From Alphaproteobacteria bacterium (GTDB lineage Bacteria; Pseudomonadota; Alphaproteobacteria; CAAGCB01; CAG-977), in contig JAFVAT010000032.1 in NCBI GenBank assembly GCA_017480385.1, positions 15,276-79,275 on the forward strand: a DNA stretch of 64,000 nt, written 5' to 3'. The first letter of the stretch is position 1. Each line of letters begins with the position of its first letter. The position numbers and the translations under genes were made by a program. The notes below the pieces were generated by a model. The model made no database searches, had not been told where the DNA came from, and saw nothing but the letters and a program-made list of their open reading frames with translations. Positions 33,599 through 62,000 of this stretch are shown here, piece after piece.

Positions 33599-33667
33599 AC
33601 CACAGCCTAATCAATACTCAATAAACGTATACTATATAATAAACTGATAGTTTTGTATAGAAGCCCT

Positions 33668-33704: not shown

Positions 33705-33723
33705 GGGGAGGAAGCAAAACAAT

Positions 33724-34959
<1,236 letters not shown>

Positions 34960-34993
34960 TCAGCATACTTTAGTCGGTTCCCGACGTAAAGAG

Positions 34994-36606: not shown

Positions 36607-36689
36607 TTTTTTTCTTTTTTTTAAGAAGATATTGTGTGTCAGTTTTGGATCGGAGCAAATGGTAAGCTTGTCAGCCAGGGGATATATAA

Positions 36690-36960: not shown

Positions 36961-37059
36961 CAAAAGAAAAGGCAGACTTAATTTATTTTGCATATATAAT
37001 TCCATATCATTATATTAAATAGGCTCATACTATAACAGCGGACAGGCAACAGTAAAACA

Positions 37060-39096
37060 TTGAATACGATTTTGCCCCTTTATGAACGTTTGGAAGATAC
37101 GACGCCGGCAGAGTTTACGTTGGTGTCGGCTTATGAACCGGCAGGAGATCAGCCCGAAGCGATTCAGTCGCTGATTGACGGGCTGCAGAACGGTGAACGC
37201 GATCAGGTGTTAATGGGTGTGACCGGATCGGGCAAGACCTTTACAATGGCACAAATCATTCAGCGCATGAAGCGTCCGGCATTGATTTTGGCGCCGAATA
37301 AGATTTTAGCGGCGCAGTTATACGGGGAAATGAAGTCTTTTTTTCCGAATAACGCAGTGGAATATTTTGTCTCTTATTATGATTATTATCAGCCGGAGGC
37401 CTATATTCCCCGCACAGATACCTATATTGAAAAAGATTCTGCGATTAATGAGCAGATTGACCGCATGCGCCATGGGGCAACGCGGCATATTTTAGAGCGC
37501 CGCGATGTGATTATTGTTGCTTCCGTATCATGCATTTATGGTTTGGGCAGCGTGGAGTCATATTCTTCTATGGCGTTTTCCGTTCAATCAGGCCAGTCTT
37601 ATGATATTAGGGAACTGGCCAGACAGCTGATAGATTTGCAGTATCAGCGCAACGATCTGGCTTTTACGCGCGGCACCTTCCGATTAAAGGGCGATGTACT
37701 GGACATTTTCCCGTCGCATTATGAAGACTTGGCGTGGCGGCTTTCTTTTTTTGGGGACGAGCTGGAATCGATTTCCGAATTTGATCCTTTGACCGGCGTA
37801 AAAAAGCTTGAGCTGAAAGAAATCACCGTTTATCCCGCCAGCCATTATGTGACGCCGCGTCCGGCGCTGTCTCAGGCAATGAAGACAATTCGGCAGGAGC
37901 TGAAAGAACGGCTGTTTTATTATACTTCCGAAAACAAACCGCTGGAGGCCGAACGGATTGAACAAAGAACGCGTTTTGATCTGGAAATGCTGGAGGCGAC
38001 GGGGCACTGCAAGGGCATCGAGAACTATTCTCGCCATTTAACGGGCCGTGCACCGGGAGAACCGCCGCCGACCTTGTTCGAGTATCTGCCGAAGGACGCG
38101 TTGCTGTTTGTTGATGAAAGCCATGTTTCCGTTCCGCAGCTGGGGGGAATGTACCGTGGAGACTTCAACCGCAAAAGCACGTTGGCGATGTATGGATTCC
38201 GCCTGCCCAGCTGTGTGGACAACCGCCCTTTGAAATTTGAAGAATGGGACAGAATGCGACCGCAGACGATTTTTGTTTCCGCGACTCCCGGTCCGTGGGA
38301 ACTGGACCAGACAAAAGGAGTGTTTACGGAACAGATTATTCGTCCGACAGGATTGCTGGATCCTTTATGTGAAGTTCGTCCCGTTGCTGCGCAGGTCGAT
38401 GATTTAATGGCGGAATGCCGCTTGTGCGCGGAAAAGGGGCAGCGTGTTCTGGTGACGACTCTGACGAAAAAAATGGCGGAGGATTTGACGGATTATTTGG
38501 CGGAAAACGGCATCAGAGTACGTTATATGCATTCAGACATTGATACGCTGGAACGCATTGAAATCGTCAGGGATTTGCGCTTAGGTGTTTTCGATGTTTT
38601 GGTCGGGATCAACCTGCTGCGGGAAGGCTTGGATATTCCCGAATGTGCTTTAGTGGCGATTTTGGACGCGGATAAGGAGGGATTCCTGCGTTCGGACCGT
38701 TCTTTGATCCAGACAATCGGGCGTGCCGCGCGCAATGCGGAAGGACGCGTCATTCTGTATGCGGATAAAATTACCGGTTCCATGCAGAGGGCTTTGGACG
38801 AAACGGCGCGCCGTCGGGAAAAGCAGCAGAAGTTTAATTCGGATCACGGCATTACGCCGAAGACCATTCAGCGCGAAATTGCCGATATTTTGCAGGAGCT
38901 GTGTGAAAAAGAGGGCATTGACCAGCTGCCGGACAATAAGGAAAAAGAACTGTTCGGTTCGGAAAAGAAACTGAAGGATACAATAGCTAAATTGGAGCGC
39001 CAGATGCGCAAAGCGGCAGAAGATTTGGAATTTGAGCAGGCAGCCCGTCTGCGTGATGAAATCCGGCGTTTGGAACAAACGATGATGCGGTTTTGA
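37060..39096 (+). CDS. uvrB: Excinuclease ABC subunit B
   Basis: GDQPEAI, Walker [10 protein letters not shown], helicase motifs, C-terminal UVR coiled coil. The start codon is uncertain (non-ATG; TTG at 37060 or an internal TTG/GTG). Confidence 0.9.
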
Positions 39097-40653: not shown

Positions 40654-41136
40654 ATGCTTTTGCCGCCGGATTTGAATCGGGAAGAGTTATTGGCCTATGT
40701 GCGCCCGCTATATCCAAATGGGATATTTCCTTTGGGATCGGGTTGGCAGATAGTGTTTTATGCTGTTTTAATCGGGGTTGCGGCAGGCGTTTTGTTTTAC
40801 CGCAGTCCGTATATGAAACGTAGACGGGAAACATTTGCCGCTTTGAACGGGCTGAGGTGTTCTTTTTTGAAGGACGGCGATGTATCTGTTCTGGCCGGTG
40901 ATCTGTCCGTTTTAATGCGCCGTGTGGCTCTGTTCCGTTTCGGACGGGAAAGGACGGCAGGATTGAACGGGCAGGAATGGATCGATTTTTTAAAACAAAC
41001 GGGGGCGGATTTGAACGAACAGGATCAACAGCTGCTGGCCGTACGGGCCTATGCGCCGCCTTTCTCTGAACAGGATAGGACCGGCGGGAAACATTTGCTG
41101 CGTTCGGTTCAAAAATGGCTGGAGCGCAACGTATGA
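40654..41136 (+). CDS. DUF4381-type membrane protein preceding BatA
   Basis: Single TM (IVFYAVLIGVAAGVLFY), with the position and size typical of the DUF4381 genes that precede batA. Confidence 0.5.
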   Translation: MLLPPDLNREELLAYVRPLYPNGIFPLGSGWQIVFYAVLIGVAAGVLFYRSPYMKRRRETFAALNGLRCSFLKDGDVSVLAGDLSVLMRRVALFRFGRERTAGLNGQEWIDFLKQTGADLNEQDQQLLAVRAYAPPFSEQDRTGGKHLLRSVQKWLERNV

Positions 41137-42131
41137 CGGGGTTTGTTTTTCCGATCATGTTTGCTTTGCTGCCGCTGCCGCTGATCGTGCGGGCTGTTTT
41201 GCCGCCCGTCAATGATGAAAACGAGGACGCGCTCAAAATTCCTTTCTTTGCCGAAATGGAAAGTTTGTCCGCCGGCGGCAGAAGGACCATGCTGGGAGGT
41301 TTGAGAATCCGTCAGATTTTAGGGGCTTTGATCTGGATATTATTGGTCACGGCAGCGGCGGGACCACAATGGATGGGCGCTCCGGCCAAGATCCCCTCAG
41401 AAGGCCGCAATCTGATGTTGGTTCTGGATATTTCGGGATCAATGGACGAAGCGGATTTCGTCATTCAAAACAAAGCCGTGCGCCGGTGGGACGCCGTGCA
41501 GGCGGTGGCGGACGCATTTATAAAAAAACGCGAAGGAGACCGCGTCGGTATCGTCCTGTTTGGCGAAAGGGCTTATTTATACGCGCCTCTGACATTTGAT
41601 TTAAAGACGGTTTCCGATCTGCTGCGGGAAGCCGATGTTGGCATGGCGGGACCTCAGACGGCAATCGGAGACGCTTTGGGTATTGCGTTAAAAACGATGA
41701 TTGATGTTCCGGCGGAAAGCAAGGTTGTCGTTTTATTATCGGACGGGGCGGCCAATGCCGGCAGCATGAAACCTATGGAAGCCGCAGATTTGGCAGCAAA
41801 AATGGGTGTTAAAGTGTATACGATCGGGGCCGGTTCCGATACGATGCAAATGGGCGGAATATTTGGAATGATGCCCTTTGCGCGCGGGGACGAAATTGAT
41901 GAAAAATCGCTTCAAGAAATGGCACAGAAAACGGGCGGGCGGTATTTTCGGGCTAAAAACACGCAGGAGCTGTTGGAAATTTATAAGGAAATCGATGCGC
42001 TGGAGCCGGTGAAAAACGATGATGTGTTTGTGCGTCCCGTCAAAGTGTTGTTTTATTATCCGCTGGCGGCGGCTTTCGGTTTAAGCGTTTTGGGGGCTCT
42101 GCTGATGCTGGCGGGCAGGAGAGGGCGATGA
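41115..42131 (+). CDS. batA: vWA-domain protein BatA
   Basis: N-terminal TM pair, vWA MIDAS DISGSM, C-terminal TM. Confidence 0.75.
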   Translation: MAGAQRMTGFVFPIMFALLPLPLIVRAVLPPVNDENEDALKIPFFAEMESLSAGGRRTMLGGLRIRQILGALIWILLVTAAAGPQWMGAPAKIPSEGRNLMLVLDISGSMDEADFVIQNKAVRRWDAVQAVADAFIKKREGDRVGIVLFGERAYLYAPLTFDLKTVSDLLREADVGMAGPQTAIGDALGIALKTMIDVPAESKVVVLLSDGAANAGSMKPMEAADLAAKMGVKVYTIGAGSDTMQMGGIFGMMPFARGDEIDEKSLQEMAQKTGGRYFRAKNTQELLEIYKEIDALEPVKNDDVFVRPVKVLFYYPLAAAFGLSVLGALLMLAGRRGR

Positions 42132-43987
42132 ACAATTTTCATTTTCTGCGTCCGGAATGGTTTTGGGGTTTTTTGGTTCTGTTTTTACTGCCGTTTTTTA
42201 TTCGCGGCGGCGGCAATTATGGCGGGCTGTGGCAAAAATTATGCGACGGGATCTTGCTGCGGTTTCAACTGATTTCCGGGACGGGACGACGTTTGTTTTG
42301 GCCCTTTTTTCTGGTAACCTCGGCTTGGACGGCAACGCTGTTTTCTTTGGCGGGGCCGACGTGGGAAAAGCTGCCCCAGCCGGCTGTTCAAAAGGGATCG
42401 GATACGGTTTATGTCATGGATATTTCCATGCTGATGTCTCCGACGGATATCAAGCCTTCCCGTATGGAGCGCGCGCGTTTTAAAGCTCACGATTTTCTGC
42501 AGAAAACAAAGGACGGACAAAACGCTTTGATTTTGTATGATCAAAAGCCGTTTGTCGCCGTTCCCCTGACAACGGATCAACATATTATCGACAATCTGCT
42601 GCCGACCGTTCGTGCCGGCATGATGGGATCGGGCATGTCTGATCTGCCTGCCGCGTTGGAAGAAGCGCTGTCCCTGCTGACACAGGCAAAATCAGCCGGC
42701 GGGCGGGTGATCGTGCTCAGCGGGCATGCTGCGGACGATCAATTGCCTCAGCTGTTGAAAACGGCAGAAAAGATTAAAGAGGCAGGGCATTCTCTTTCTT
42801 TTTTGGGTGTTGGCACAAAGCGCGGAGCTCCGCTGCAGCTGCCGAACGGGAATTTTCTGACGCATCAGGGCAGGCCGGTCTTGTCGGCGCTGTCTCAAAA
42901 AAATATGGAAAAGGCGGCGCGCGCCGGCGGTGGAACATATCAAACGGTTACGCTGGACGAAAAGGATATTGAAGCGATACTTGATGCTTTGCCGGAACGA
43001 ACGGAACAGCCGCTTTTTGCCGAACAGGAGCGGGCAAAGGCGGATACGTGGAAAGATTTCGGCGCTGTTTTGTGTATTTTTGTGCTGCCCTTTGCCGCTT
43101 TCGGCTATCGGAAAGGGTGGCTGGGCATTTGGCTGTTTGCGGCAGCTTTAAGTCCCTTGCAGGCGCATGCGTGGACTTTTTCCGATTTATGGACGCGCCC
43201 CGACCGCAGGGAGGCCATGGCGATTGCAGCCGGAGAAACACCGCATGATCCGGCGGTGTTCAACGATCCCGCGTGGCAGGGGGCGGCGGCTTACAAGGCC
43301 GGAGATTATCCGTCGGCGGTTTCTGCTTTGAACGGCGCCCAAGATGCGGAAAACTTGTATAACCAGGGCAATGCGTTGGCGCAGGCGGGGCAGTATCGGC
43401 AGGCTATAGAAACGTATCAGAAAGTATTGGAAAAAATGCCGGATCATGAAGATGCGGCGTTTAATAAAAAATACTTGGAAGATCAGCTGAAAAACAATCA
43501 GCAGAACCAGCAGAAGCAGCAAAATCAAGATCAGCAGAAACAAAATCAGAATCAACAGAACCAAAGCGATTCTCAGGACCAAAAGCAGCAGGATCAAAAA
43601 CAGCGCCAACAGCAGCAGGGGCAGGATCAGCAAAAGCAGCAGGATCAGCAGCGCTCTGATCAGGACCGGCAAAATCAGAATCAATCTGATCAGGATCGGC
43701 GGGATCAGCAGCAGTCTCGGCAGAACCAACAGGATCAGCAGCAGGATCAGTTGAAAGATCAACAGGACCAAAGGGGCGGACAGGAGCAGGCCGGCTCTGT
43801 GCAAAATCAACAGAAAAGCAACCGTAAGCCGCAGTCTGAACAAAAAGCTCCGCCGGAACAAAAGACGGACCAAGATCAGGAAAGACAGGAACAAATGCAA
43901 TGGCTTAGCGTTATTGAGGACGATCCTTCCGGTTTGCTACGCGAACGGATCCGCCGCCATAATCTGATGAACAGGAGAGGAAGATAA
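42128..43987 (+). CDS. batB: vWA + TPR protein BatB/BatC-like with a long Gln/Asp/Lys-rich low-complexity tail
   Basis: vWA with degenerate MIDAS (DISMLM), TM, TPR repeats (AAYKAGDYPSAV...AQAGQYRQAIETYQKVLE), then ~100 aa of QQ/QN/QD repeats. Confidence 0.65.
   Translation: MNNFHFLRPEWFWGFLVLFLLPFFIRGGGNYGGLWQKLCDGILLRFQLISGTGRRLFWPFFLVTSAWTATLFSLAGPTWEKLPQPAVQKGSDTVYVMDISMLMSPTDIKPSRMERARFKAHDFLQKTKDGQNALILYDQKPFVAVPLTTDQHIIDNLLPTVRAGMMGSGMSDLPAALEEALSLLTQAKSAGGRVIVLSGHAADDQLPQLLKTAEKIKEAGHSLSFLGVGTKRGAPLQLPNGNFLTHQGRPVLSALSQKNMEKAARAGGGTYQTVTLDEKDIEAILDALPERTEQPLFAEQERAKADTWKDFGAVLCIFVLPFAAFGYRKGWLGIWLFAAALSPLQAHAWTFSDLWTRPDRREAMAIAAGETPHDPAVFNDPAWQGAAAYKAGDYPSAVSALNGAQDAENLYNQGNALAQAGQYRQAIETYQKVLEKMPDHEDAAFNKKYLEDQLKNNQQNQQKQQNQDQQKQNQNQQNQSDSQDQKQQDQKQRQQQQGQDQQKQQDQQRSDQDRQNQNQSDQDRRDQQQSRQNQQDQQQDQLKDQQDQRGGQEQAGSVQNQQKSNRKPQSEQKAPPEQKTDQDQERQEQMQWLSVIEDDPSGLLRERIRRHNLMNRRGR
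43495..43795 (+). repeat. Imperfect CAG/CAA (Gln)-rich coding low-complexity tract inside batB
   Basis: cagcagaaccagcagaagcagcaaaatcaagatcag... read directly. Gives the spurious L/I-rich antisense ORF 43187-43900. Confidence 0.8.
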
Positions 43988-45840
43988 TGAAGAACAGAAT
44001 CGTATCCGTATTTCTTGTTATGCTTGCTTTATGCCGCAGTGCCGCCGGATTTGAAGCGAATGTCAGCCGCACGGTCATTCCGGAAGGCGAAAGCTTTCAG
44101 CTTTATTTGCGTCAGGACGGAAACGGCGCAAAACCGGATATCTCTGTTTTAAACGAAGATTTTTTAATCACAATGGAGCGCAAAAGTTTCAAATCAACCT
44201 ACGTCAACGGAAAAACGCAATCGTTTAATGAAAACGTGCTGACGCTGATTCCCAAAAAGACGGGAAAGGTGATTCTGCCTTCTATTCGGGCGGGCAAGGA
44301 GCAGACGTCTCCGATTATGCTGACAGTGGTCGCCGGTGGGCAGGCTCTGCCTGATGATCCCGTTGCCCGTGAAAAGGCGCGAGCCGTCCAGCCTAATGTG
44401 TTTATCCGGTATTCATTGGACGATGCGTCTCCTTATGTCGGTCAGCAAATTCCTTTGACGGTACGGCTGTATTCCTTCGTTCAGACGCCGCTTTTGGACG
44501 GGACCGTCCTGCCGCCAAAAGCCGACGGCGTAACGGCGGAACAGTGGGGAGATGTGAAACGCCGCAGAGAAAAGGTGCATAACAGAACTTATGATGTTCT
44601 GGAATATCAGTTTTTATTGTTCGCTCAGAAAAGCGGCAAGCTGGAGCTTTCTCCCGCCCAGTTCAGAGGATCTGTCAGTGATCCCAACGGCCGTCAGGAA
44701 GATATGGAAGACATGTTCGGCATGGGGGGCGCCGGTCTTTTTTCGGGCTTTTTCAGTCAGAAAAGCATAGCGGTCCAATCCGATCCGATCGTTTTGAATG
44801 TTAAGCCTATTCCCGCCGACGTCAGCGGTGCCTGGCTGCCGGCGACAGAGGTAGCCGTATCGGAAGATTTAACGCCGCCGAAACAATCGATTTCTTTGGG
44901 AGAAGCATTGACGCGTACTGTGACGGTTATGGCTTCCGGCGTTCGGGATTCGCAGATTCCCGATTTGGTTTTTGCAGACGGACCGAATTATAAACAGTAT
45001 CCGGGCAAAACGGATTCTAAAAATTTGTTCGACAATAACGGTGTCGTCGGGGTAAAAACGCGCCAGATCGTATTTATGCCGACTGCCGCCGGATCGGTTG
45101 TTTTGCCGCGCATGGAAATACCATGGTTTGATGTGAAGACGGGCAAGACGAAAAAAGCTGTTCTGCCGTCCCGTACGATTACGGTAACGGCAGATGCGGG
45201 CGAGGACGTTTCCGCCACGGTGCCTCCTGCTTCGGCGGCTCCCAAAGCGCCGGCTTTGACGGATTCGGCAGCAGCGTCCGTTTCTTCGCCCGATGCTCCG
45301 GTATCCGCCTTTGCCGAAGCTTTTTCCGAGCCGATGCAGAATCTGGACGAGCAGGTTGCGGCGCAGACTTTTTGGGAAAAATACGTGCATCAGCCGCCCC
45401 TGCGTTTGTTTTTAGCCGGGATTTTGGCCGGCGGAGCGGCAGTAACCGTTCTCTGGCTGCTTATGCATTTCTTGATTTTTAAAAAAGCTGTGCCGCAGAC
45501 GGTATCAGTGCAAGTTAAAGAAAGTGATACGGCGGCGCTCAGACAGCTGAAAGAAGCTTGTCAATCCGGTCCCGCAGAAAAAGTCAAGCAGGCTCTTTTA
45601 AACTGGGGCCGTTCTTTTTGGCCGGACAAGCCGCCTCTGACGGTTTCCGAATTGGCTGAACGGATGAACAGTCCGGCTTTGAAGTTGGAAATAGACGAAC
45701 TTAACCGCGCTTTGTACGGGGAAGACCGGACCGAATGGAGCGGGGAGGATTTCTGGTTGGCTTTTAAAACGGCTGCGACTGACGGAAAGAAGAAAGCGGA
45801 AAATGAAAAAATTCCCGTTCCGCCGCTGTATCCGGATTAA
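43987..45840 (+). CDS. batD: BatD oxygen-tolerance-type protein
   Basis: Signal peptide, BatD N-terminal domain, C-terminal TM (LFLAGILAGGAAVTVLWLL); 617 aa. Confidence 0.65.
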   Translation: MKNRIVSVFLVMLALCRSAAGFEANVSRTVIPEGESFQLYLRQDGNGAKPDISVLNEDFLITMERKSFKSTYVNGKTQSFNENVLTLIPKKTGKVILPSIRAGKEQTSPIMLTVVAGGQALPDDPVAREKARAVQPNVFIRYSLDDASPYVGQQIPLTVRLYSFVQTPLLDGTVLPPKADGVTAEQWGDVKRRREKVHNRTYDVLEYQFLLFAQKSGKLELSPAQFRGSVSDPNGRQEDMEDMFGMGGAGLFSGFFSQKSIAVQSDPIVLNVKPIPADVSGAWLPATEVAVSEDLTPPKQSISLGEALTRTVTVMASGVRDSQIPDLVFADGPNYKQYPGKTDSKNLFDNNGVVGVKTRQIVFMPTAAGSVVLPRMEIPWFDVKTGKTKKAVLPSRTITVTADAGEDVSATVPPASAAPKAPALTDSAAASVSSPDAPVSAFAEAFSEPMQNLDEQVAAQTFWEKYVHQPPLRLFLAGILAGGAAVTVLWLLMHFLIFKKAVPQTVSVQVKESDTAALRQLKEACQSGPAEKVKQALLNWGRSFWPDKPPLTVSELAERMNSPALKLEIDELNRALYGEDRTEWSGEDFWLAFKTAATDGKKKAENEKIPVPPLYPD

Positions 45841-52753: not shown

Positions 52754-53464
52754 ATGGAAAAAAGTGTGTCAAAAGCGTCTGTTCGCAAAAATACAAATAA
52801 AACTGCCGGCTCCGGAGGGAAGCATGCGGAAGGCGGGCGTTTGGCTACATTTATGTGGCTGTCCCGATTTTTCAATATCTTGTGTTTTGTTTTGGTGTTT
52901 TCCGGCTCTGTTTTGGCGCTGTCTTTGCTTCATATAACGAAAGAAGCCGAAGTGAATTCTGTCTTAGTAACGGCGCCGACATATTCCGATAATCTGGCTT
53001 ATTTTGAACCGTTGCATCCGGATATGCCGACCATGGATATTTTGGCGGAAATGTTTGTTCGTCTATATATTACAAGCCGATATAATGTTTGGACAAACAT
53101 ACAAGAAATGCGCGTTGCATGGGGGCCCGGAGGAATAGTGAGCCGTTTATCAACATGGGACGTGTATGATAATTTTTGGGAAACAGAAGCAAAGCGATAT
53201 CTTCCCGATGAAAGCATGGAAATACCTCCCGAAGTAATGATAGATACGGATATTAAGCGGATTATTAAGGAGGGTTGGAACAGTTGGCAGATCTTTTTTG
53301 ATACGCGTAAAATGGAAACAACAATCAGTCCGCCGGTCATAGATCATTGGATCGCAACGATACAGTTCCGATATTATGCGTCGAATGCTGTTATGGCTAC
53401 ACGTTTGCGCAATCCGATGGGATTTACGGTGACGCAATATCATTTAGCACGTCAAAAGCAATAG
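52754..53464 (+). CDS. VirB8/TrbF-like T4SS inner-membrane protein, paralog 1
   Basis: Short cytoplasmic N-terminus, single TM (FFNILCFVLVFSGSVLALSLL), ~180-aa periplasmic domain ending in NPMGFTVTQYHL (VirB8 NPxG-F-x-V-x-x-Y signature). Confidence 0.55.
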   Translation: MEKSVSKASVRKNTNKTAGSGGKHAEGGRLATFMWLSRFFNILCFVLVFSGSVLALSLLHITKEAEVNSVLVTAPTYSDNLAYFEPLHPDMPTMDILAEMFVRLYITSRYNVWTNIQEMRVAWGPGGIVSRLSTWDVYDNFWETEAKRYLPDESMEIPPEVMIDTDIKRIIKEGWNSWQIFFDTRKMETTISPPVIDHWIATIQFRYYASNAVMATRLRNPMGFTVTQYHLARQKQ

Positions 53465-53477
53465 CTTACGGAGAAAG

Positions 53478-53675
53478 ATGATGAATATAAAAGGATTAGG
53501 AAAAGTGGCTTTAATTATCGGCTTTTGTGCGGTTTTAAACGCTTGCGGTTCGATTTATGAAAAAGAGCCGGTCGGCGTCGGTCCGGATATTTCGGAATTA
53601 AAACGCTCCCCTTGTGCCTGTATGTTATTGAAACTTCCTGCCGAACTGCCGGAATGGATATCGGTTAACGGATAA
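53478..53675 (+). CDS. Small lipoprotein (VirB7/CagT/ComB7-like by size and position)
   Basis: 65 aa, lipobox LNAC. Sits between the two VirB8-like genes. Confidence 0.4.
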   Translation: MMNIKGLGKVALIIGFCAVLNACGSIYEKEPVGVGPDISELKRSPCACMLLKLPAELPEWISVNG

Positions 53676-53691: not shown

Positions 53692-54465
53692 ATGCCAAAA
53701 CCGGTTAAATCAAAACAACAGCTGACCATTAAGAATGCCGAGGGAAATGTGCCTGCGCCTCAAAATGCTTCTGTCGGCAGCGTGAAAAAAACGTCAGAGA
53801 AACAGAATGCGCTAAGGACAGAAGAAATATCTGTAGACCTGCTCAGAGAACGGCGTTATTTATGGACTGCCCGCGCTTTTGCGATTGTTTCCGGTGTCGC
53901 TTTGTGTGTGAATTTGGTTTTATTGGTTGCGATTATGCATTTGATGCCATTAAAACGGGTGGAACCGTTTTTGTTGACCTTTCAAAATAAAGAGGAACAA
54001 GTTGTTAAAATTAAGCCGTTGGCAAGTGATATGGCAGCGGAGGATATTATTTCCGAAGCAATGATCCGCCAATATGTTCTTTTGCGCAATACAATGATTG
54101 CGGATATCGATGAAATGGCTTTTCGTTGGGGTCCCGACGGCCCTTTGCGTTGGATGTCGTCCAGTCAGGTTTATAATCAGTTCAGCAAAACGGTCAAAGA
54201 CTGGCTGGCCCGAATCAAACTGGAAGGGTTAACCCGTGAAGTTCGTATTGAATCCGTTGTTCGTAACCAAAACACGTGGTTAGTTTATATTGTAACGCGT
54301 GATATGTTGCCCGAAGCTGAAGAACCGGCAATTTCCCGTTGGCGTATCCGGTTGTCGATCAAATACTTTGCTCAGGGGCAAAATGAGGTTAAATACATCA
54401 ACAGACTGAAAAATCCTTTGGGCTTTGCGGTTGACAGATATATGATTGAAAGTGCTAACGATTAA
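53692..54465 (+). CDS. VirB8/TrbF-like T4SS inner-membrane protein, paralog 2
   Basis: Same topology as paralog 1. C-terminal NPLGFAVDRYMIE motif. Confidence 0.55.
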   Translation: MPKPVKSKQQLTIKNAEGNVPAPQNASVGSVKKTSEKQNALRTEEISVDLLRERRYLWTARAFAIVSGVALCVNLVLLVAIMHLMPLKRVEPFLLTFQNKEEQVVKIKPLASDMAAEDIISEAMIRQYVLLRNTMIADIDEMAFRWGPDGPLRWMSSSQVYNQFSKTVKDWLARIKLEGLTREVRIESVVRNQNTWLVYIVTRDMLPEAEEPAISRWRIRLSIKYFAQGQNEVKYINRLKNPLGFAVDRYMIESAND

Positions 54466-54477
54466 AGAAGGTGTCTC

Positions 54478-56016
54478 GTGAAAAGATATTTGAAAATCCG
54501 CCTTTTTGCAGTTGTTTTAAGTTTGTGTTGTCTGATTGTTCCGCAGGCGTCGGCACAACAGTCTGCTGCCCGTGAATCTATGGACGCGGCTATTGAACAG
54601 TCAAACGGACAATATTCTGAAATAGATATGCCTTTGTGGTCTGTTGGCATGCAGCAAAAAGCTTGGAATAAGCCAATGGAACATTTAGGAGAAGGGCAGT
54701 CTAAACCGGGATATTCCAGATATTACTGGACACCGGATCTGGTTTTGCCTCTGCGTATCCGCGAAGGCATGCATACGTTGGTTAATTTTCCGTCTTGGGA
54801 ATTGATTGAAAATATTTTTATGGGAAATGAAAGTGCCTTCGGCGCTCAAAAGGTAGCTCCGAATGCTTTGATGGTTTTTGCGGCGAATGCCGATTTGGTC
54901 GGCATGGATACGAACATGATTGTTTTTGGCAGATCCGGAAACAGATATGTTTTTTACCTCAGAAGCGAAACTTTTAATACGGACAGAATTACAAACTCGG
55001 TTGTAGATATTATTGTTAATGATGTTAAATTTGTTCCCGATGATTCCGGATTAACGCCAACGGCTTCCGGCGCGATTGTTCCCGGCGGAGGGATTGGCGC
55101 TGCGTTGGGGACAACCGGCGGCGGTTTGCGCGGCGGTAAAAAAACAACCAAAAACGCAACGGAAGATTGGTTGGCCGATTTAGAAGTGGATCCTGAAAAA
55201 ATACGGTTTGATATAGATGTTTTTGTGCCTAATCCAGCGGATATAGAAATTGCGCCGGAACGTGTGTGGCGCGATGAAATCTTCACTTATATTGATTTTG
55301 GCCCGAAAGCTTTGACTATGATAGAGCGACCTATTGTTAACCTGCTTTCTCAAGGATCCGAAGTGCCGATTGGTTTCAGAACACGCGGGCCGAATAGCAG
55401 ATTAATGGTTGTTGAAGGCATTGGTGATTTGGTTTTGCGTAACGGCAAACGTATTTTATGTTTAAAGATCAGAAAAGATCCCTCTTTCGGGACGGAATGG
55501 GTGGAATATGAAGCCTCCGTTCAGCCGCAATGGTCTCCCGGTCCGATGATTACGACGGGCGGATATAACGGCGGCGCTGCACAATCCGGAACGATGGGCG
55601 CTTCGAGTGTCGGTAATGTTCCGAATAATAACGGCATGATGATCTCTATGGGACCAAACGGAACGATGAGCGCCAATCAAATCGCACAGTTTTCTGCGCA
55701 AAGGCAGAGCGGTCAAAATTACGGACGTACGGCACAATCGTACCGCGGAAATTCAGAAGGCGGCTTTGCTATTGAGCTGGGAGCTGACGGGAATATTGTA
55801 ACATTAGAGCAAAAATGGGATGGCATCGCCCGCAAAAATAAAGATTTGCTGGGCGGATATGAACCGTACTATTCGGTAGACGCTGTTGCGGAGGGAGAAT
55901 CAAAAGATATGTTCCGTTTGCGGATCGGTCCTGTTGACAGTATCGAAGCAGGGGACAGGTTATGTAATCAATTAGGTCGCCGCGGGGTGACGTGTATGGT
56001 TGTGCGGACACAATGA
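54478..56016 (+). CDS. VirB9/CagX/TrbG-like outer-membrane-complex protein fused to a C-terminal SPOR peptidoglycan-binding domain
   Basis: GTG start with RBS. Signal peptide. VirB9 C-domain signature DEIFTYIDFGPKALTMIERPIVNLL...LMVVEGIGDLVLRNGKRILCLK. Gly-rich linker. Terminal ~80 aa FAIELGADGN...MFRLRIGPVDSIEAGDRLCNQLGRRGVTCMVV match the SPOR beta-alpha-beta-beta-alpha-beta pattern. Confidence 0.6.
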   Translation: MKRYLKIRLFAVVLSLCCLIVPQASAQQSAARESMDAAIEQSNGQYSEIDMPLWSVGMQQKAWNKPMEHLGEGQSKPGYSRYYWTPDLVLPLRIREGMHTLVNFPSWELIENIFMGNESAFGAQKVAPNALMVFAANADLVGMDTNMIVFGRSGNRYVFYLRSETFNTDRITNSVVDIIVNDVKFVPDDSGLTPTASGAIVPGGGIGAALGTTGGGLRGGKKTTKNATEDWLADLEVDPEKIRFDIDVFVPNPADIEIAPERVWRDEIFTYIDFGPKALTMIERPIVNLLSQGSEVPIGFRTRGPNSRLMVVEGIGDLVLRNGKRILCLKIRKDPSFGTEWVEYEASVQPQWSPGPMITTGGYNGGAAQSGTMGASSVGNVPNNNGMMISMGPNGTMSANQIAQFSAQRQSGQNYGRTAQSYRGNSEGGFAIELGADGNIVTLEQKWDGIARKNKDLLGGYEPYYSVDAVAEGESKDMFRLRIGPVDSIEAGDRLCNQLGRRGVTCMVVRTQ

Positions 56017-59000
56017 ACGAAGAATTACTCAGCTCATCAGACAGATATTTGAAAAAATCCAACAAAATGCTGTTGGTTGTCGGGATTGTTGCATTACTGG
56101 CTTTCCTGATCGGTATTGTTATTTTGTTGAGCGGGGAAGAAGAGCAGAAAAAAGATGCGGAAGTGACTATTGATGGTTCTGCGGACAGTTCGACTAATAT
56201 TACCGGCGGCAATGCGGATACGTTTAATCTTGCTCAGGATATAGATGCAACGACAACATCGACGGTCAGGTTGGTTGTTTCCCCGGAAACTCTGCGTTTT
56301 GATCAGGTCGTTTTGGGAACGGAAGCCGAAGGGACGTTGACGCTGTCCGCTTCTTCCGGTCGGATCAGGATCACCTCCGTTGAATTTGAAAATAAACAGG
56401 AAGAAAGTTTTATTCTGGAAAACAAATGCCGCAAAGATATTGTCCTGACCGGCGATGTGACATGCAACGTTGTTGTTCGCTGGGAACCGAAGACGGCACG
56501 GACGATACAGTCCAATTTAGCTGTTCGGTGGAGTGATGAAACTTTTGGCGGTATTGGTCGGAAAGTGATCGTTCCTATTTCAGCTATGGCAATTGATACC
56601 AGTATGTGCGGCGTGTGTGACGAAGCGCCGGGCGGTGGCGGATCGATGCTTGAGCAGTTGCGTAAAAAAGGACGCGTTGTCTTGGGGCCTGACGGAAAAC
56701 CGATCGGGTACGCCGATGAAAACGGTGTTGTCTATGGTTTGGACGGCAAAAGAATCGGCACGCTGCGTGATGATGGCACTGTTGTCGATGATCAGGGATA
56801 TGTAATTGGTGTTGTTGAAGGGTCAAGGCTGGCAATCGGACCGAATGGAGAAATTTTAGGAACGATTTTGCCCGACGGTCGTGTTATAGATAAGGACGGT
56901 CGGTTAATAGGATATGCTTTGCCTGACGGAACGATCGTAGACCTGAACGGCAATGTGATTGGTTCGGCTGTTAAAACGGGATTAGCATATGACAAATACG
57001 GCAATGTGATCGGTCGCATCATGCCTGACGGGACGGTCGTTGACGAGAATGGAAATATCATCGGATATGTTAACCCGGATGGCACGATTGTTGATATCAA
57101 CGGTAATATTATCGGTTCTGTTGCTCCTCAGGGAACGGTTGTTGATGCTTCAGGAAAACCCTTAGGTATCGTAATGCCTGATGGGACTGTCGTTGATGCG
57201 GACGGGAATATTATTGGGCGTGTTTTACCGAATGGGTTGGTTGTTGATAAAGACGGGAATATTATAGGGCGCGTTGTTAAGGAAGGCTTGGCAATCGGGC
57301 CTGCCTGCAAAATGGTTGGTCGAATCAGTACAGACGGATCGGTGATGTCCGGCAATCGTCAAGTCGGGCGTTTGACGGCTTCCATGGTTGTGGTTGATAT
57401 GTCGGGAAACCCAATTGCCGGTTATGTTGAAGAAGGCGCTTTAATCGACTGGAAAGGCAAAATTATTGGTAAAGTAGACACAGATGGTCAGCCTGTTTCT
57501 TTTAAGGGTGAACCTTTAGGGTGTTTGACGCCGTACGGAACGGTCGTAAATGATTCTGAAGAAATTACGGCATCTGTTTTGCCAAAGGGAACGGTTGTCG
57601 GAAATCAGGCTGAACTTATTGGACGAGTTATGCCGGACGGGTCTGTTGTTGGTAATGGCCAGATGAAAGGACGTATTTTGCCGGACAAGACGTTCTTATC
57701 AGAAGACGGCAATGTTTCAGGGGCTATTGCGCGGCAAAATGTCGGTGTCGGTCCGGGGTGCGTGGCCTTAGGATATGCGAATGTTGACGGCCAAATCATT
57801 ACGGCCAAAGGAGAATTTGCCGGTTATTTAGCGGCAAACGGCGATATTCTTGATGATAAGAAAGTCGTCTTGGGGAAAATTATGGATTCCTCGGTTGTTC
57901 TGAATAATCAGGGCCGTATAGCCGGTATTATGGATGCAAACGGCAAAGTACAAGATAAAAACGGGAAAATTTTGGGCTGTATGGACCCGTCGGGATTGGC
58001 CTTGAATTCTAAAAATGAAGCTGTCGGCATGCAAATGCCTGAGGGTGGTGTTCTGGACCGTGATGGGCGCACAATCGGTTGGGTCATGCCGGACGGCACT
58101 GTTTCGAATACCAGAGGTTCTTCCATCGGTCGGGCTGTACCAGACGGCACTGTCATTGATTTAGGTGGGCAAACAGTAGCCCGGCTGGCTCCTTATAACG
58201 GATTTGCCCTAAGAAATGCCTGTACGGTTGTCGGTAATATTTTGATAGACGGTCGTGTTGTCGATAAAGATTTCAACAGAAAAGCCTATATCCAAATGAA
58301 CGATTCGCTGGTTGATGATAAAGGGGCTTTCTTAGGGCGTGTTGCCTTTGCTTCCCGTGCGATCAGCGCTAAAGACGTTTATTTGGGAATAACGGCAAAA
58401 GATGGCTCACTGTATGATTCTTCGGGCAAAAAGATAGGTTGTCTGCGTCCGGATTCTTTGTTCATTGATGATAAGAACAGGTTTTTGGGAGCGGCATTGC
58501 CTGAAGGAATTGCGGTTAACAATAAAACTAACCTTTATGCCAGAGGGGATTCAATCGCAAAGGCGATGAATTTAAAAGGAAATTCTTTTATCGGAACTAT
58601 TACTCTCAGTGGCTTTGTCAAAGAAAAAGATACGATTTCCGGCGGTATTATCCCTCGGAAGGCGGATGTTTTAGATATTAAAACCAGCAAAACAATAGGT
58701 CGTTTGCTGCCGGACGGTTCTGCGATAGATTTGTCCAGCCGTTACATGGGGCGTTTAAAAATGCCCGGCGGAGAAATTGTTGATAAAAGCGATAAAGTCG
58801 TTGGTAAAATTTTTGTCGGCATGAGGCAGGTCATTGGACCGAACGGAGAAATTTTAGGTGTTGTCATGCCGGACGGTTCTGTTGTGGATGCGTCTGGTCG
58901 TGTGATCGGAAAAGCAAATTTAGACGGTCAGGTTGTTGATGAAAACGGTCGTGTCATCGGTGAGGTTATCCCCGTAGGGCAGCCGATTTTAGGGCTGGAT

Positions 59001-62000
59001 GGTAAGATTATCGGCTATGTCGGAATTGATGGAACAATCGTTGATAAAGACGGCAATCCCGTTTTGGGACCTAATGGTAAACCAATGCGTTATAGAGCCG
59101 GTGGTTCCGTTGTGGAAGAAGATGGAAAAGTTATCGGACGTGTCGGTGAAATGGGGCGACTTGTTTATGATGAAAACGGCAATATAATTGGTCGCGTTTT
59201 GCCCGATGGTACGGTTGTCGATTTAAATGGTAATGTCATTGGGAAAATGCTGCCTGATGGCACCGTCGTTGATTTGAATGGTAATGTAATTGGGCACGCC
59301 GGTGAATTAGAACAGCTCGTATTTGATGAAAACGGTCGTTTAATCGGACGGGTATTGGCTGACGGAACGGTTGTTGATTTCAATGGTAACGTGATTGGCC
59401 GTGTTTTGCCTGACGGTACAGTTATTTCGTTAGACGGCAAGGTGATAGGATATGCCGTAAAAGAAGGGATAGGACTAAATTTTCAAAACGAAGTTTTGGG
59501 TAAAATTAATTCTTCGGGACAGTTGAAAAAACAGGGGTCTGATAAAGTATTAGGAAATTTACAGGTTGATGATACGATCACGGACAGCAAAAACACTATT
59601 ATCGGGCGGGGAATCGTTAATTCAAGACCTGTTGGATTGCAATGTCAAGTTTTGGGAACGATCAATGATAAGGGTGAAGTTGTAGATACGACGGGCAAAA
59701 CAAGCGGTCGTGTAAATTATGATCGATCCTTGATTAATGCGATGAATTCACAGATTGGTCTGGCCCTAGGACAGGAATCCATTATTGATGACTCATGCAA
59801 AATTATTGGTCAAATAAATGCAGAGGGTAAAGCTGTTGATACTAAAGGAACAGAAATCGGCTGTGTTGATTTTGAAGGACTGGTAAAAGATAAAAACGGA
59901 AAACGTCTGGGACGGATTGTTTCCAAAGGGCCGGTGCAGGGACCAAATGGTGATATTGTAGGTAAAATCGTTTCTAATGGCGAAGTTTTAGGAAGTCAGG
60001 GAGATGTACTGGGCTGTTTGTCGCTTAATGGAGCCGTTGTAGATAAGGGAAAGAAAGTCTTAGGGGTTGTTTCCGATCAAAAATATGCCGTTGATGATCG
60101 AGGCAAGATTATTGCTCATGTTATTGGTGGAACGTATGGTGTTAATGCGGAAGGCGGTGCCTTTGTCGGGAAATTGTCAGATCAGGAATTAAAAGAAAAT
60201 GACGATAAATCGTTAGGAGTTTTAATTCCGGGCGGGCGTCGTGTCATTGCCGTTGACGGTAAAATGGTCGGAACGGTTCTTCCACGAGGACGAGTCCAAA
60301 ATGACAAAGGGGAAGAAGTTGGCTATGTTACATCTTCCATGCGTGTTTTAACAGACGATCAAAAATTTTTAGGCCGGGTTGTTCCTATTGGTGAAGAATG
60401 TAAAGATATGAAGGGCAAGACGATAGGAACGGTTCATTTCGACGGAACTATTGTCGATGAAAAGAATCAGGTTCTGGGACGTTTAATGGCCAGCGGTCAG
60501 GCTTTAAATAACGCCGGTGCGCATTTATGTATGATTTCTTTGATCAGCACAAGTGATGACGGGGCTTTATTTCCAAAAGGCTTAATCGGCAAAATGGTGT
60601 ACGGACCGGATGGAAAACCCTTGGGCGTTGTGGGGGCAGACGGTTTTATCCGCGACGCAAACGGGAATATCATCGGCAGAGTTTTGCCGGACGGAACGGT
60701 CGTTGACTTAAATGGCAATGTAATTGGGAAGGCGTATCCTAAAGGGGCTGTTTTCGGGCCGGACGGCAAATTCTTGGGCATTGTTGATGCTGACGGCTAT
60801 CTGCGCGATGAAAACGGGAATATTATCGGTCGTATGCTGCCGGACGGGACTGTTGTTGATATGAACGGCAATATTATCGGACGTGCGCTGCTGGAAGACG
60901 GCATTGTTGATGATAAAGGAAACTTCTTAACAAAAGCTGGACAATCCGGCGAAGCTTTATTGGAACGTTTGGTCTATGATGAAAACGGCAATGTGATCGG
61001 GCGGGTTCTGCCGGATGGAACGGTTGTTGATCTGAATGGCAACGTGATCGGTCGTATGCTTCCGGATGGAACAGTTGTTGATTTAAACGGTAATGTGATT
61101 GGTAAGGCCGGTCCTTTGGAACGATTGGCATATGATAAGGATGGCAAACTGATAGGTCGTGTTTTACCGGATGGAACAGTTGTTGATTTTAACGGCAACG
61201 TGATCGGGAGAATGCTACCTGATGGTACGATAGTTGATAAAAACGGCAATGTGATTGGCCGGGCGGGAACGACTCAGGCGGCTCAGTCCAAAAATGTTAA
61301 AATAGCTGTCGGAAGAGACGGCAAGTTCTTAGGTATAGTTGGGGAAGACGGTTTTGTTCGTGATGCGAACGGCAATATTATCGGACGTGTTTTACCAGAC
61401 GGCACGGTTGTTGATTTAAACGGTAATGTGATTGGTTCCATTTTGGAAGGCGAACCGATGTATGATGAAAACGGTAATATTATCGGTATCATTATGCCGG
61501 ATGGAAAAGTTGTGGATTTGGATGGCAACGTGATCGGACGTATTAATGCCAACGGTGAAATAGTTGATGAAGAAGGGAATATTCTGGGGACATGGCGCGG
61601 CGGAAAATTGACGGTTCAGAGTGACAAGTTGCGGCAAAAACGGTTCGCATTCGACAAAGACGGCAGGCGGATTGGAATGATTATGTCGGATGGTACAGTT
61701 GTTGATGAAAACGGCAATGTGATCGGGCGGGTTCTGCCGGACGGTACCGTTGTTGATTTAGAAGGTAATGTAATTGGTTCAACGACAGATCCGAATGTTT
61801 CTTCGCCTTCATTGGGAAAAACGGATAAAGAGAAGCAGGTTTCTGTTTTTGGTACGTTTGATCCGGATAAATACAGTTATCGGGGAACGGGCGGTACAGG
61901 CAAAGGAGAACGCTATGATCCGGCCAGAATCAAGCGGCTCAGAGAACTGCAAATGGCCTACCGCCGTCAGATCCGTCCCGGAATGGGAATGGGTGAAACG

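What the first reader, a model, noticed from the sequence alone, without database searches (positions are those of the whole stretch)
56685..61780. Hyper-expanded VirB10: ~1700-aa array of ~100 short beta-type repeats between the inner-membrane anchor and the VirB10 C-domain
Typical VirB10/TrbI proteins are 350-450 aa with a short Pro-rich linker. Here the linker is replaced by about a hundred degenerate 8-9-residue units (consensus roughly h-P-D-G-T-V-V-D / h-N-G-N-V-I-G-R), often paired into 17-residue units. CagY and DotG/IcmE are the known precedents for repeat-expanded VirB10-like proteins, but their repeats are of a different type. The D/N-G-x-V/I-h periodicity suggests a beta-solenoid or beta-roll-like rod that could span an unusually wide periplasm or extend beyond the outer membrane. 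I could not assign the repeat to a named family from memory.
Basis: seen in the sequence. Interest (0 to 1): 0.8.

Follow-up and report, generated by a model that had tools for sequence, protein, structure and literature searches.

The report
Giant VirB10 with 100 beta-hairpins
A gut alphaproteobacterium's type IV secretion channel protein, VirB10, is about six times its usual size because roughly 100 conserved 17-residue beta-hairpin repeats of the recently named, never experimentally solved 'beta-flower' type sit between its membrane anchor and its channel domain; hundreds of related gut species share this, and nobody appears to have described it.

Summary
A single ORF (56013..63059, 2348 aa) lies between virB9 and virB11. 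It has a genuine TrbI/VirB10 C-domain (Pfam E=5e-30; ComB10, TrwE and CagY structures matched). Residues 226-1933 have a 17-residue period (autocorrelation z=27), giving about 97-100 hairpin units grouped in 51-52-aa triplets.

It matches Pfam Bflower_2, Bflower and DUF3659 (E=5e-127) and, locally, YD-repeat models. AlphaFold gives confident all-beta modules of 12 strands joined by low-confidence linkers. It did not predict one rigid body (pTM 0.39), and no solved structure resembles the modules.

An unnoticed ASH/PapD-like Ig domain sits between the anchor and the array.

Intact giant orthologues (1273-2666 aa) occur in 29 other gut or rumen alphaproteobacterial genomes. The array is collinear among them and as constrained as the TrbI domain (pN 0.10-0.17 while silent sites are saturated). 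Indels come in three-hairpin quanta.

A sister clade splits the gene in two, and the second half starts with a signal-peptide-like N-terminus. The same repeat occurs in DotG-like and CpaB proteins.

Best reading: a periplasmic scaffold of an rvh-like T4SS. This is a new variant of a known kind.

The parts
56013..63059 (+). Giant virB10 coding sequence (2348 aa from ATG 56013; the ORF is open from 55992).
   Evidence: ORF list and translation. ATGA overlap with the virB9 stop. Intact orthologous ORFs in 29 other genomes.
56013..56135 (+). Short cytoplasmic tail and the single transmembrane helix (aa 26-48 in 55992-based numbering).
   Evidence: This is the only Kyte-Doolittle window above 1.6 in the whole protein. 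Lys-rich residues precede it.
56256..56597 (+). ASH/PapD-like (MSP-type) Ig beta-sandwich domain, aa 89-202, with invariant Cys146 and Cys158.
56607..56618 (+). Invariant CxxC motif (MCGVCDE, aa 206-209).
   Evidence: Invariant in A4 and in 13 orthologues.
56667..61790 (+). Beta-hairpin repeat array, aa 226-1933. It holds about 97-100 units of 17 aa, which is about 33 three-hairpin super-repeats of 51-52 aa. AF2 groups them into modules of about 104 aa with 12 strands.
   Evidence: period and family. (structure). (conservation).
61791..62105 (+). Basic Gly/Lys/Arg-rich linker with the conserved GERYDPxR helix segment, aa 1934-2038.
   Evidence: Composition and net charge +10. Conserved columns in A1 and A2.
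62106..62699 (+). TrbI/VirB10 C-terminal domain, including the helix-loop-helix antenna region, aa 2039-2236.
   Evidence: Pfam PF03743 E=5.2e-30, 105 bits against cut-off 35. NCBIfam ComB10 and VirB10 models. PDB sequence matches to ComB10 2bhv (E=1.6e-13), TrwE 7o3j and CagY.
62700..63056 (+). Acidic then Gln-rich low-complexity tail ending in the conserved ...PIPELF-COOH.
   Evidence: Q is 30% of aa 2246-2355. The P[ED]LF terminus is conserved across the clade.
54478..56016 (+). virB9 (512 aa, enlarged) with a C-terminal SPOR domain.
   Evidence: Pfam CagX E=1.5e-11; SPOR 23.8 bits against cut-off 21.
53692..54465 (+). virB8 copy b.
   Evidence: Pfam VirB8 E=2.4e-21.
53478..53675 (+). 65-aa lipoprotein ORF with lipobox LNAC, in the virB7 position.
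   Evidence: ORF translation. A gene of the same size is called in L001. The position matches Rickettsia islet C.
52754..53464 (+). virB8 copy a.
   Evidence: Pfam VirB8 E=4e-10.
63080..64000 (+). virB11 ATPase; it runs off the end of the window.
   Evidence: Translation. Pfam T2SSE E=4.6e-21. 93-99% identical in related genomes.

Best explanation
This is the VirB10 subunit of a chromosomal P-type type IV secretion system in an uncultured gut or rumen alphaproteobacterium. The islet has the gene order virB8-virB7-virB8-virB9-virB10-virB11, as in Rickettsiales rvh islet C.

Domain order: short cytoplasmic tail, one TM helix, a disordered stretch of about 40 aa, an ASH/PapD-like Ig domain, a CxxC motif, about 100 beta-hairpins of 17 aa, a basic linker, the TrbI/VirB10 outer-membrane domain, and an acidic/Gln-rich tail ending in PELF. 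The hairpins are of the beta-flower/DUF3659 type. Three hairpins make a 51-52-aa evolutionary unit. AlphaFold groups them in six-hairpin modules.

Inferred mechanism: the array lies in the periplasm. Assuming the usual 14 or so VirB10 copies per core complex, it would add roughly 2.5 MDa of disulfide-stabilised beta-modules. These would associate with each other to build an extra periplasmic collar or cage between the inner-membrane complex and the outer-membrane cap. CagY/CagX and DotG play that role in the 'expanded' Cag and Dot/Icm machines.

Shown: the identity of the protein, its domain map, the repeat family, conservation, the indel quanta, the split-gene form, and recurrence of the repeat in DotG-like and CpaB proteins.

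Inferred: periplasmic location, self-association into a ring or cage, and the stoichiometry.
For: - VirB10 identity. The TrbI domain scores far above cut-off. ComB10, TrwE and CagY structures are matched, including the antenna region. There is one TM helix. The gene lies between virB9 and virB11 with translational coupling. The islet order matches Rickettsia islet C.
- Repeat identity. Bflower_2 E=4.6e-127 in 20 stretches, plus DUF3659 and Bflower. The [DN]xxG turn motifs match those described for the fold.
- Structure. AF2 pLDDT 85, all-beta, 12-strand modules split by low-confidence linkers.
- Periplasmic topology. The array sits between an N-in TM anchor and the outer-membrane domain. All 16 Cys are conserved. 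In the split clade the second gene begins with a signal-peptide-like N-terminus and the first keeps the TM anchor.
- Functional constraint. The array is collinear and 60-97% identical among 13 species, often more conserved than TrbI. pN is 0.10-0.17 against saturated pS of 0.65-0.8.
- A structural-module role. Indels come in 49-57-aa quanta. The same repeat is inserted in other inner-membrane-anchored, channel-docking subunits, namely DotG/IcmE-like and CpaB/RcpC proteins.
- Self-association. The split form lacks covalent continuity between anchor and TrbI domain, yet it is conserved in about 45 species genomes and is monophyletic.
Against: - There is no experimental or in situ structural evidence.
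- AF2's pTM of 0.39 says nothing reliable about how modules pack, and I could not inspect coordinates.
- Signal peptides and disulfides are judged from sequence only.
- A stacked rod of about 16 modules could also span a periplasm, so cage and rod are not separated.
- CagY's repeats, likewise N-terminal to its VirB10 domain, have been proposed to be surface-exposed (as cited). Topology alone therefore does not exclude exposure.
- Copy number per machine is assumed from other T4SSs.
- The rest of the T4SS (virB2-6, virD4) is not in the window.
Confidence: 0.6

Rival explanations
1. Periplasm-spanning rod or molecular ruler. The modules stack into one stiff rod per subunit. The rod sets or bridges an unusually large inner-to-outer-membrane distance, or transmits force from the inner membrane to the outer-membrane gate.
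For: The array replaces the Pro-rich periplasm-spanning linker of ordinary VirB10. Lengths are fairly uniform, 2000-2700 aa in most single-ORF species. About 16 modules stacked face to face could plausibly reach tens of nanometres; this is my estimate, not a computed value.
Against: AF2 shows low-confidence linkers between modules and pTM 0.39, not a continuous solenoid. Lengths vary two-fold within the clade (1273 to more than 3000 aa summed). The split-gene clade breaks the polypeptide in the middle of the array, which a continuous force-transmitting rod would not tolerate easily.
Confidence: 0.2
2. Surface-exposed sheath or adhesin, as in the classical view of CagY. The array is threaded outside the outer membrane to contact target cells or host molecules.
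For: CagY and DotG repeat regions have been argued to be host-exposed (paper read). Hairpin repeats resemble YD and cell-wall-binding-type repeats that often occur in surface proteins.
Against: The array is N-terminal to the outer-membrane-inserted domain. It is position-by-position conserved with dN far below dS, the opposite of the recombining, diversifying CagY and DotG repeats. It has 16 invariant Cys. The same repeat sits in periplasmic CpaB.
Confidence: 0.1
3. Peptidoglycan- or glycan-binding array that anchors the machine in the cell wall.
Against: There is no significant match to any known cell-wall-binding repeat family. Aromatic residues are sparse (63 F/Y/W in 1700 aa), unlike choline- or glycan-binding hairpin repeats.
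Confidence: 0.07
4. Rhs/YD-type shell, or an artefact (misassembly or pseudogene).
For: The YD_repeat_2x model scores 98 bits and RHS_repeat E=1.5e-20 for the whole protein. Foldseek's top PDB hits are Rhs shells. Public gene calls of orthologues are often fragmented.
Against: No single RHS stretch passes on its own. There is no PxxxxDPxGL core motif. TM-scores to Rhs shells are at most 0.10. Strands are only 3-5 residues long. The ORF is intact here and in 29 other species, with strong purifying selection and diverged DNA copies.
Confidence: 0.03

Closest known systems
CagY (Cag7, HP0527), the VirB10 homologue of the Helicobacter pylori Cag T4SS
   Same: A giant VirB10 (1927 aa) with a C-terminal TrbI-type domain (matched here) and a very long repeat region N-terminal to it. 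It is part of an expanded core complex with a periplasmic ring.
   Different: From my own knowledge, CagY repeats are helical, Cys-containing motifs. They rearrange by in-frame recombination and vary between strains (paper read). Here the repeats are 17-aa beta-hairpins that are collinear and under purifying selection between species.
[quoted passage not shown]
   Same: An inner-membrane-anchored VirB10 homologue with a TrbI C-domain and a repeat-containing middle region of variable length.
   Different: Legionella DotG carries pentapeptide repeats that recombine (PMC6761968), and no Pentapeptide family is hit here. However, DotG/IcmE-like proteins of other Gammaproteobacteria (P0070, P0149, P0045; 650-914 aa) carry the same beta-flower-type hairpin repeat, in arrays of only about 250-400 aa.
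Beta-flower fold families (Pfam PF21784, PF21785, PF21786 and DUF3659; clan CL0395; Durairaj et al. 2023, PMC10584680)
   Same: The repeat scores far above the gathering thresholds of Bflower_2, Bflower and DUF3659. It has the [DNEQ]xxG hairpin-tip motif and short antiparallel strands with alternating loop lengths. No PDB relative exists.
   Different: The described beta-flowers are single small domains (about 96 aa; 8, 10 or 12 strands), often enclosing a helix or carrying a lipoprotein signal. Here about 16 modules are concatenated inside a secretion-system subunit, without central helices. Closure into a barrel could not be verified.
RvhB10 and the Rickettsiales vir homolog (rvh) T4SS
   Same: The gene order virB8a-virB7-virB8b-virB9-virB10-virB11 in a chromosomal islet detached from the other vir genes, with duplicated virB8.
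   Different: From my own knowledge, not tested here, RvhB10 is of ordinary size. There is no virB9a upstream here, and in the relative L001 no virD4 directly follows virB11. No phylogenetic link to rvh was tested.
YD/Rhs repeats (TIGR01643, PF05593)
   Same: YDxxGxxIG-like hairpin motif. Whole-protein scores pass these models, and Foldseek finds local 3Di similarity to Rhs shells.
   Different: A shorter period (17 aa), strands of 3-5 residues, no Rhs core motifs, no cocoon, and no toxin domain.

Membership tests
VirB10/TrbI family | TrbI (PF03743) C-terminal domain above the curated threshold | tested here: met
   105.1 bits against cut-off 35, E=5.2e-30, profile positions 2-188 of 188. NCBIfam ComB10 and VirB10 models are hit but below their equivalog cut-offs.
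VirB10/TrbI family | Sequence homology to solved VirB10 C-domains, including the helix-loop-helix antenna | tested here: met
   ComB10 2bhv E=1.6e-13 aligned over 211 residues through the antenna region; TrwE 7o3j 6e-9; CagY 1e-6.
VirB10/TrbI family | Bitopic topology: short cytoplasmic N-tail and a single TM helix | tested here: met
   One hydrophobic segment only (aa 26-48) by Kyte-Doolittle scan. Orientation is inferred from the flanking Lys residues.
VirB10/TrbI family | Encoded between virB9 and virB11 in a T4SS gene cluster | tested here: met
   CagX/VirB9 upstream with an ATGA overlap, and a T2SSE/VirB11 gene downstream. The synteny holds in about 80 loci.
VirB10/TrbI family | Short Pro-rich periplasmic linker (typical, not strictly defining) | tested here: not met
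   It is replaced by an Ig domain plus a 1708-aa array with only 62 Pro.
VirB10/TrbI family | Assembly with VirB7 and VirB9 into a roughly 14-fold outer-membrane core complex | not testable with these tools
   Needs biochemistry or cryo-EM.
Beta-flower (Pfam clan CL0395: PF21785, PF21784; DUF3659) | Profile matches above the gathering thresholds | tested here: met
   Bflower_2 416.6 bits (cut-off 38) in 20 stretches; Bflower 152.8 bits (cut-off 25); DUF3659 168.5 bits (cut-off 24.8).
Beta-flower (Pfam clan CL0395: PF21785, PF21784; DUF3659) | Semi-conserved [DNEQ]xxG motif at the hairpin tips | tested here: met
   The consensus LPDGTVVDLNGNVIGRA has [DN]G turns alternating at spacings 10 and 7. 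The motif definition comes from the paper read.
Beta-flower (Pfam clan CL0395: PF21785, PF21784; DUF3659) | Closed shallow barrel of 8, 10 or 12 short antiparallel strands with 4-, 5- or 6-fold symmetry | tested here: inconclusive
   AF2 gives 12-strand modules bounded by low-confidence linkers. Coordinates could not be inspected and the AlphaFold-database fold library was unavailable. Indels of half a module and a final three-hairpin unit complicate a strict six-fold reading.
Beta-flower (Pfam clan CL0395: PF21785, PF21784; DUF3659) | Central hydrophobic helix enclosed by the barrel (present in many members and in Tubby) | tested here: not met
YD/Rhs repeat proteins | YD repeat profile matches | tested here: inconclusive
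   TIGR01643 98.5 bits and PF05593 73.5 bits for the whole protein, but no individual stretch passes on its own.
YD/Rhs repeat proteins | Rhs core with the PxxxxDPxGL autoproteolysis motif, a closed cocoon and a C-terminal toxin | tested here: not met
   The motif is absent. TM-scores to Rhs shells are at most 0.10. The C-terminus is a TrbI domain.
DotG/IcmE-type expansion | Pentapeptide repeats in the middle region | tested here: not met
   No Pentapeptide family appears among the Pfam hits. The repeat period is 17, not 5.
CagY-type expansion | Recombining repeat modules that vary between strains | tested here: not met
   The array is all-beta, and collinear and conserved between species. Within-species variation was not tested.
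Rickettsiales vir homolog (rvh) T4SS | Islet C gene order with duplicated virB8 flanking virB7, followed by virB9, virB10 and virB11 | tested here: met
   Searches compared with Gillespie et al. 2009.
Rickettsiales vir homolog (rvh) T4SS | virB9a upstream and virD4 downstream of the islet; duplicated virB4 and multiple virB6 elsewhere; phylogenetic affinity to rvh | tested here: inconclusive
   No virB9a lies upstream; a DEAD-box helicase gene is there instead. The window ends inside virB11. In L001 no virD4 follows. Other islets and the phylogeny were not examined.

The most novel reading that the evidence does not exclude
Beta-flower-type hairpin arrays are a general, so far unrecognised periplasmic building module. 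They have been inserted repeatedly into inner-membrane-anchored subunits that dock onto outer-membrane channels: VirB10, DotG/IcmE, and CpaB/RcpC of Tad pili. In this widespread gut alphaproteobacterial clade the module has been amplified about 100-fold, to build a megadalton periplasmic cage of a fold that has never been solved experimentally. The naturally split two-gene form shows that the inner-membrane anchor and the outer-membrane VirB10 domain can be coupled non-covalently through array-array contacts. That would challenge the view that VirB10 must be one continuous envelope-spanning polypeptide.
Probability: 0.3. Interest if true: 0.8.

Novelty: new variant of a known kind. Interest (0 to 1): 0.62.

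Why it matters
- VirB10 is the only T4SS subunit that spans both membranes, and it is thought to relay energy from the inner-membrane ATPases to the outer-membrane gate. Only two kinds of large expansion (CagY, DotG) are described in the T4SS literature I found, both in pathogens and both fast-evolving.
- Here a third, structurally different expansion is conserved in over 250 species-level genomes of gut and rumen Alphaproteobacteria, including human-gut MAGs. These organisms have no cultured representatives that I know of, and I found no description of their T4SS.
- It gives a concrete biological context for the beta-flower fold, which is so far only a computational prediction.
- It offers a natural split/fused pair for testing whether covalent continuity of VirB10 matters.
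- It points to a shared periplasmic module in T4SS and Tad-pilus machines.

Tried and rejected
- A strict 17-mer HMM recognised only about 50 units. It was too stringent for the degenerate middle of the array, so I replaced it with autocorrelation, a three-hairpin HMM and PSSM tiling.
- Sequence search of the repeat against the PDB found nothing significant; the best hit was 9das_A at E=0.002. The N-terminal region also found nothing by sequence.
- The AlphaFold-database fold library was not available, so no direct comparison with published beta-flower models was possible.
- The search for homologous proteins returned only proteins of about 700 aa or less. This made the orthologues look short. 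Reading the contigs and the representative library showed the true lengths.
- Literature searches for DUF3659; RF32 with T4SS; VirB10 with YD repeat; and CAG-239/Rs-D84 with secretion system found nothing relevant.
- I considered misassembly or a pseudogene and rejected it.
- I considered a plasmid, ICE or conjugative context and rejected it for this window. The neighbours are housekeeping genes (uvrB, uvrC, hflX, PTS, pfk).

Full report
**Observation.** The window has one long ORF, 55992..63059 on the + strand. Its translation shows a hydrophobic N-terminal segment, then about 1700 residues of visibly periodic sequence, then a non-repetitive C-terminal part. The most likely start is ATG 56013. 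It overlaps the stop codon of the upstream gene in an ATGA, giving a 2348-aa, 249-kDa protein. Residue numbers below count from 55992.

The repeat is real and highly non-random.
- [DN]G dipeptides alternate at spacings of 10 and 7.
- Residue autocorrelation at lag 17 has z=27 over aa 232-1930 against shuffles, with harmonics at 34 and 51/52.
- Every 170-aa sub-window between about aa 200 and 1950 shows the 17-residue period.
- A strict consensus PSSM (LPDGTVVDLNGNVIGRA) places 57 units, against 5.8 in shuffles. The gaps between placed units are multiples of 17, so the array holds about 97-100 units.
- A profile of three consecutive hairpins (51-52 aa) tiles aa 226-1933 with about 33 copies.
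- At the DNA level the copies are only 60-79% identical, with periods of 51 and about 153-156 nt. The array is therefore ancient, not a recent slippage product or an assembly collapse.

The unit is 17 residues, built from two 8-9-residue halves.

**What the gene is.** Pfam places a TrbI/VirB10 domain at aa 2039-2236 (E=5.2e-30, 105 bits against a cut-off of 35). NCBIfam's ComB10 and VirB10 models agree. The same region aligns to the solved ComB10 periplasmic domain (2bhv, E=1.6e-13, through the helix-loop-helix antenna), to TrwE of R388, and to CagY. There is exactly one transmembrane segment, aa 26-48.

The neighbours are as follows.
- Upstream: virB8, a 65-aa lipoprotein ORF in the virB7 position, a second virB8, and an enlarged virB9 with a C-terminal SPOR domain.
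- Downstream: virB11.

This is the order of islet C of the Rickettsia rvh system described by Gillespie et al. 2009. The rest of the window is chromosomal housekeeping (uvrB, uvrC, hflX, PTS, pfk, comEC).

**The repeat has a name.** The array matches Pfam Bflower_2 (E=4.6e-127, 20 stretches), DUF3659 and Bflower. These families were created for the 'beta-flower' fold, which Durairaj et al. 2023 found by mining AlphaFold models. They describe shallow barrels of 8, 10 or 12 short antiparallel strands whose hairpin 'petals' carry a [DNEQ]xxG motif. They found no similarity to the PDB.

The array also accumulates score on YD/RHS repeat models, reflecting a YDxxGxxIG-like motif. But no single RHS stretch passes on its own, the Rhs core motif is absent, and the C-terminus is a TrbI domain.

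**Structure prediction.** AlphaFold2 on aa 1531-1935, with 44 homologous fragments, gave mean pLDDT 85 but pTM 0.39. The model is purely beta, with alternating 3- and 5-residue strands. It contains three blocks of 12 strands (about 104 aa, six hairpins) and a final six-strand block, separated by low-confidence linkers.

A second model, aa 48-335, shows four things in order:
- a disordered stretch;
- an eight-strand beta-sandwich at aa 89-202;
- a short helix;
- another 12-strand block.

**Comparative genomics.** A scan of species-representative genomes found 263 loci encoding a relative of this TrbI domain. The best 80 are almost all MAGs of gut, rumen or faecal Alphaproteobacteria from humans, ruminants, horses, mice and others. 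Synteny virB8-virB8-virB9-virB10-virB11 is conserved, and VirB11 is 93-99% identical in the nearer genomes.

In 29 other genomes the VirB10 is a single intact ORF of 1273-2666 aa, with a median near 2290. Public gene callers often fragment or miss it; in one case a 1489-aa antisense ORF was called instead.

Among 13 close orthologues:
- the array is collinear and 60-97% identical per 100-aa block, often more conserved than the TrbI domain;
- indels come in quanta of 49-57 aa, i.e. three hairpins, or multiples of that;
- non-synonymous divergence in the array is 0.10-0.17 while synonymous sites are saturated at 0.65-0.8, so the array is as constrained as the TrbI domain;
- all 16 cysteines outside the cytoplasmic tail are invariant or nearly so, including a CxxC after the Ig domain and three pairs spaced 72-73 residues apart inside the array.

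**The split-gene clade.** About 45 genomes of a sister clade encode the same thing as two genes.
- ORF1 has the TM anchor, the Ig domain and about 900 aa of repeats. It ends in a conserved ...EVAKNRRN, with a Shine-Dalgarno sequence inside its last codons.
- ORF2 starts with a signal-peptide-like hydrophobic N-terminus. It then has about 1100 aa of repeats, the TrbI domain and the ...P-x-LF terminus.

The window protein aligns to ORF1 over aa 8-1158 and to ORF2 over the remainder. In a neighbour-joining tree of the TrbI domain, rooted with ordinary VirB10s, the split forms are monophyletic and the single-ORF forms basal. The split is therefore probably derived; the tree has no bootstrap support.

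**Where else the repeat occurs.** Searches with a 405-aa piece of the array found only 1126 proteins at E of 1e-3 or better among 1.84 billion cluster representatives. My local classification of the best hits gave:
- giant VirB10s: 17 representatives with Ig domain plus TrbI, 1498-2406 aa;
- ORF2-type proteins: 15 representatives of 1200 aa or more with TrbI only;
- ORF1-type proteins;
- DotG/IcmE-like proteins of 700-914 aa;
- Flp-pilus CpaB/RcpC proteins of 784-900 aa.

All of these are inner-membrane-anchored periplasmic subunits that dock onto an outer-membrane channel.

**Mechanism.**
- Shown: identity as VirB10, the domain map, the repeat family, strong position-specific constraint, modular three-hairpin evolution, the split/fused pair, and recurrence of the repeat in analogous subunits of other machines.
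- Inferred: the array is periplasmic. The grounds are its topology between an N-in anchor and the outer-membrane domain, the conserved cysteines, and the signal-peptide-like start of ORF2.
- Inferred: because VirB10 is normally present in about 14 copies, the array would add roughly 14 x 177 kDa of beta-modules. These would self-associate into a collar or cage between the inner-membrane complex and the outer-membrane cap, comparable in role to the periplasmic ring or cylinder contributed by CagY/CagX and DotG.

The split form argues that array-array contacts can replace covalent continuity. That favours an assembly scaffold over a simple tether.

I give this reading 0.6. A stiff periplasm-spanning rod or ruler gets 0.2. 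Surface exposure (0.1), cell-wall binding (0.07) and Rhs shell or artefact (0.03) are less likely, for the reasons given under rival explanations.

**Comparison and novelty.** The closest known cases are CagY and DotG, but they differ in two ways: their canonical repeats are of a different kind, and they evolve by recombination and diversification. The repeat family is known only as a predicted fold. I found no paper that connects it to T4SS or that describes the T4SS of these gut Alphaproteobacteria. I therefore rate this a new variant of a known kind.

**Limits.**
- No coordinates could be inspected.
- Signal peptides and disulfides are judged by eye.
- Stoichiometry is assumed from other systems.
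- The rest of the T4SS and its substrates are outside the window.
- The taxonomic placement rests on record titles only.

Noticed in passing
L031, L034-L083 (e.g. L035 3042-6455 and 6458-10987): In about 45 related genomes the giant virB10 is two genes. The junction is conserved: ORF1 ends in ...GY[AV]LQEVAKNRRN*, with a GGAGG Shine-Dalgarno sequence inside its last codons, and ORF2 opens with a signal-peptide-like segment. The split forms are monophyletic in an NJ tree.
   Followed up: partly
window 62700-63056 and the C-termini of orthologues: The extreme C-terminus ...P-[VIA]-P-[ED]-L-F-COOH is conserved across the clade. It follows a variable acidic and Pro/Gln-rich low-complexity tail (30% Gln in the window). 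A terminal Phe is reminiscent of outer-membrane-protein C-terminal signatures; its function is unknown.
   Followed up: no
window 54478-56016: VirB9 is enlarged (512 aa) and carries a C-terminal SPOR (peptidoglycan-binding) domain just above Pfam's cut-off. I am not aware of this for VirB9.
   Followed up: no
window 56427-56618 and the array (Cys at aa 146, 158, 206, 209, 439, 511, 590, 663, 744, 817, 1218, 1269, 1291, 1342, 1470, 1513): All 16 cysteines of the extracytoplasmic part are invariant or nearly so in 13 orthologues. They include a CxxC motif and three pairs spaced 72-73 residues apart, which suggests periplasmic disulfides.
   Followed up: partly
window 63080-64000 and L004-L029: VirB11 is 93-99% identical between genomes whose VirB10 TrbI domains are only 55-76% identical. 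That is an unusually tight constraint on the ATPase.
   Followed up: no
L001 4321-8790 (- strand); window 56000-62000: The sense strand of the array has a strong GC skew (0.27-0.31). In a relative, its antisense strand stays open for 1489 codons and was called as a gene by the public annotation, while the real gene was missed or fragmented. The protein database behind search for homologous proteins returned no hit longer than about 700 aa.
   Followed up: partly
P0086, P0093, P0097 and similar (Flp pilus CpaB/RcpC, 640-900 aa); P0070, P0149, P0045 (DotG/IcmE-like): The same 17-aa hairpin repeat is inserted after the RcpC domain of Tad-pilus CpaB proteins and in the middle of DotG/IcmE-like proteins from Gammaproteobacteria. 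In the latter it takes the place that pentapeptide repeats occupy in Legionella DotG.
   Followed up: partly
window 32000-38000, ORF 34994-36658 (- strand): A patch of lower G+C (0.41, against about 0.48-0.50 elsewhere). It contains a 554-aa ORF with no Pfam match, next to comEC and an aminotransferase gene.
   Followed up: no
window 41115-45840: A BatA-D-like operon (VWA, VWA+TPR, BatD/DUF7939) lies upstream of the T4SS islet. This is an aerotolerance-type gene set, as known from anaerobes.
   Followed up: no
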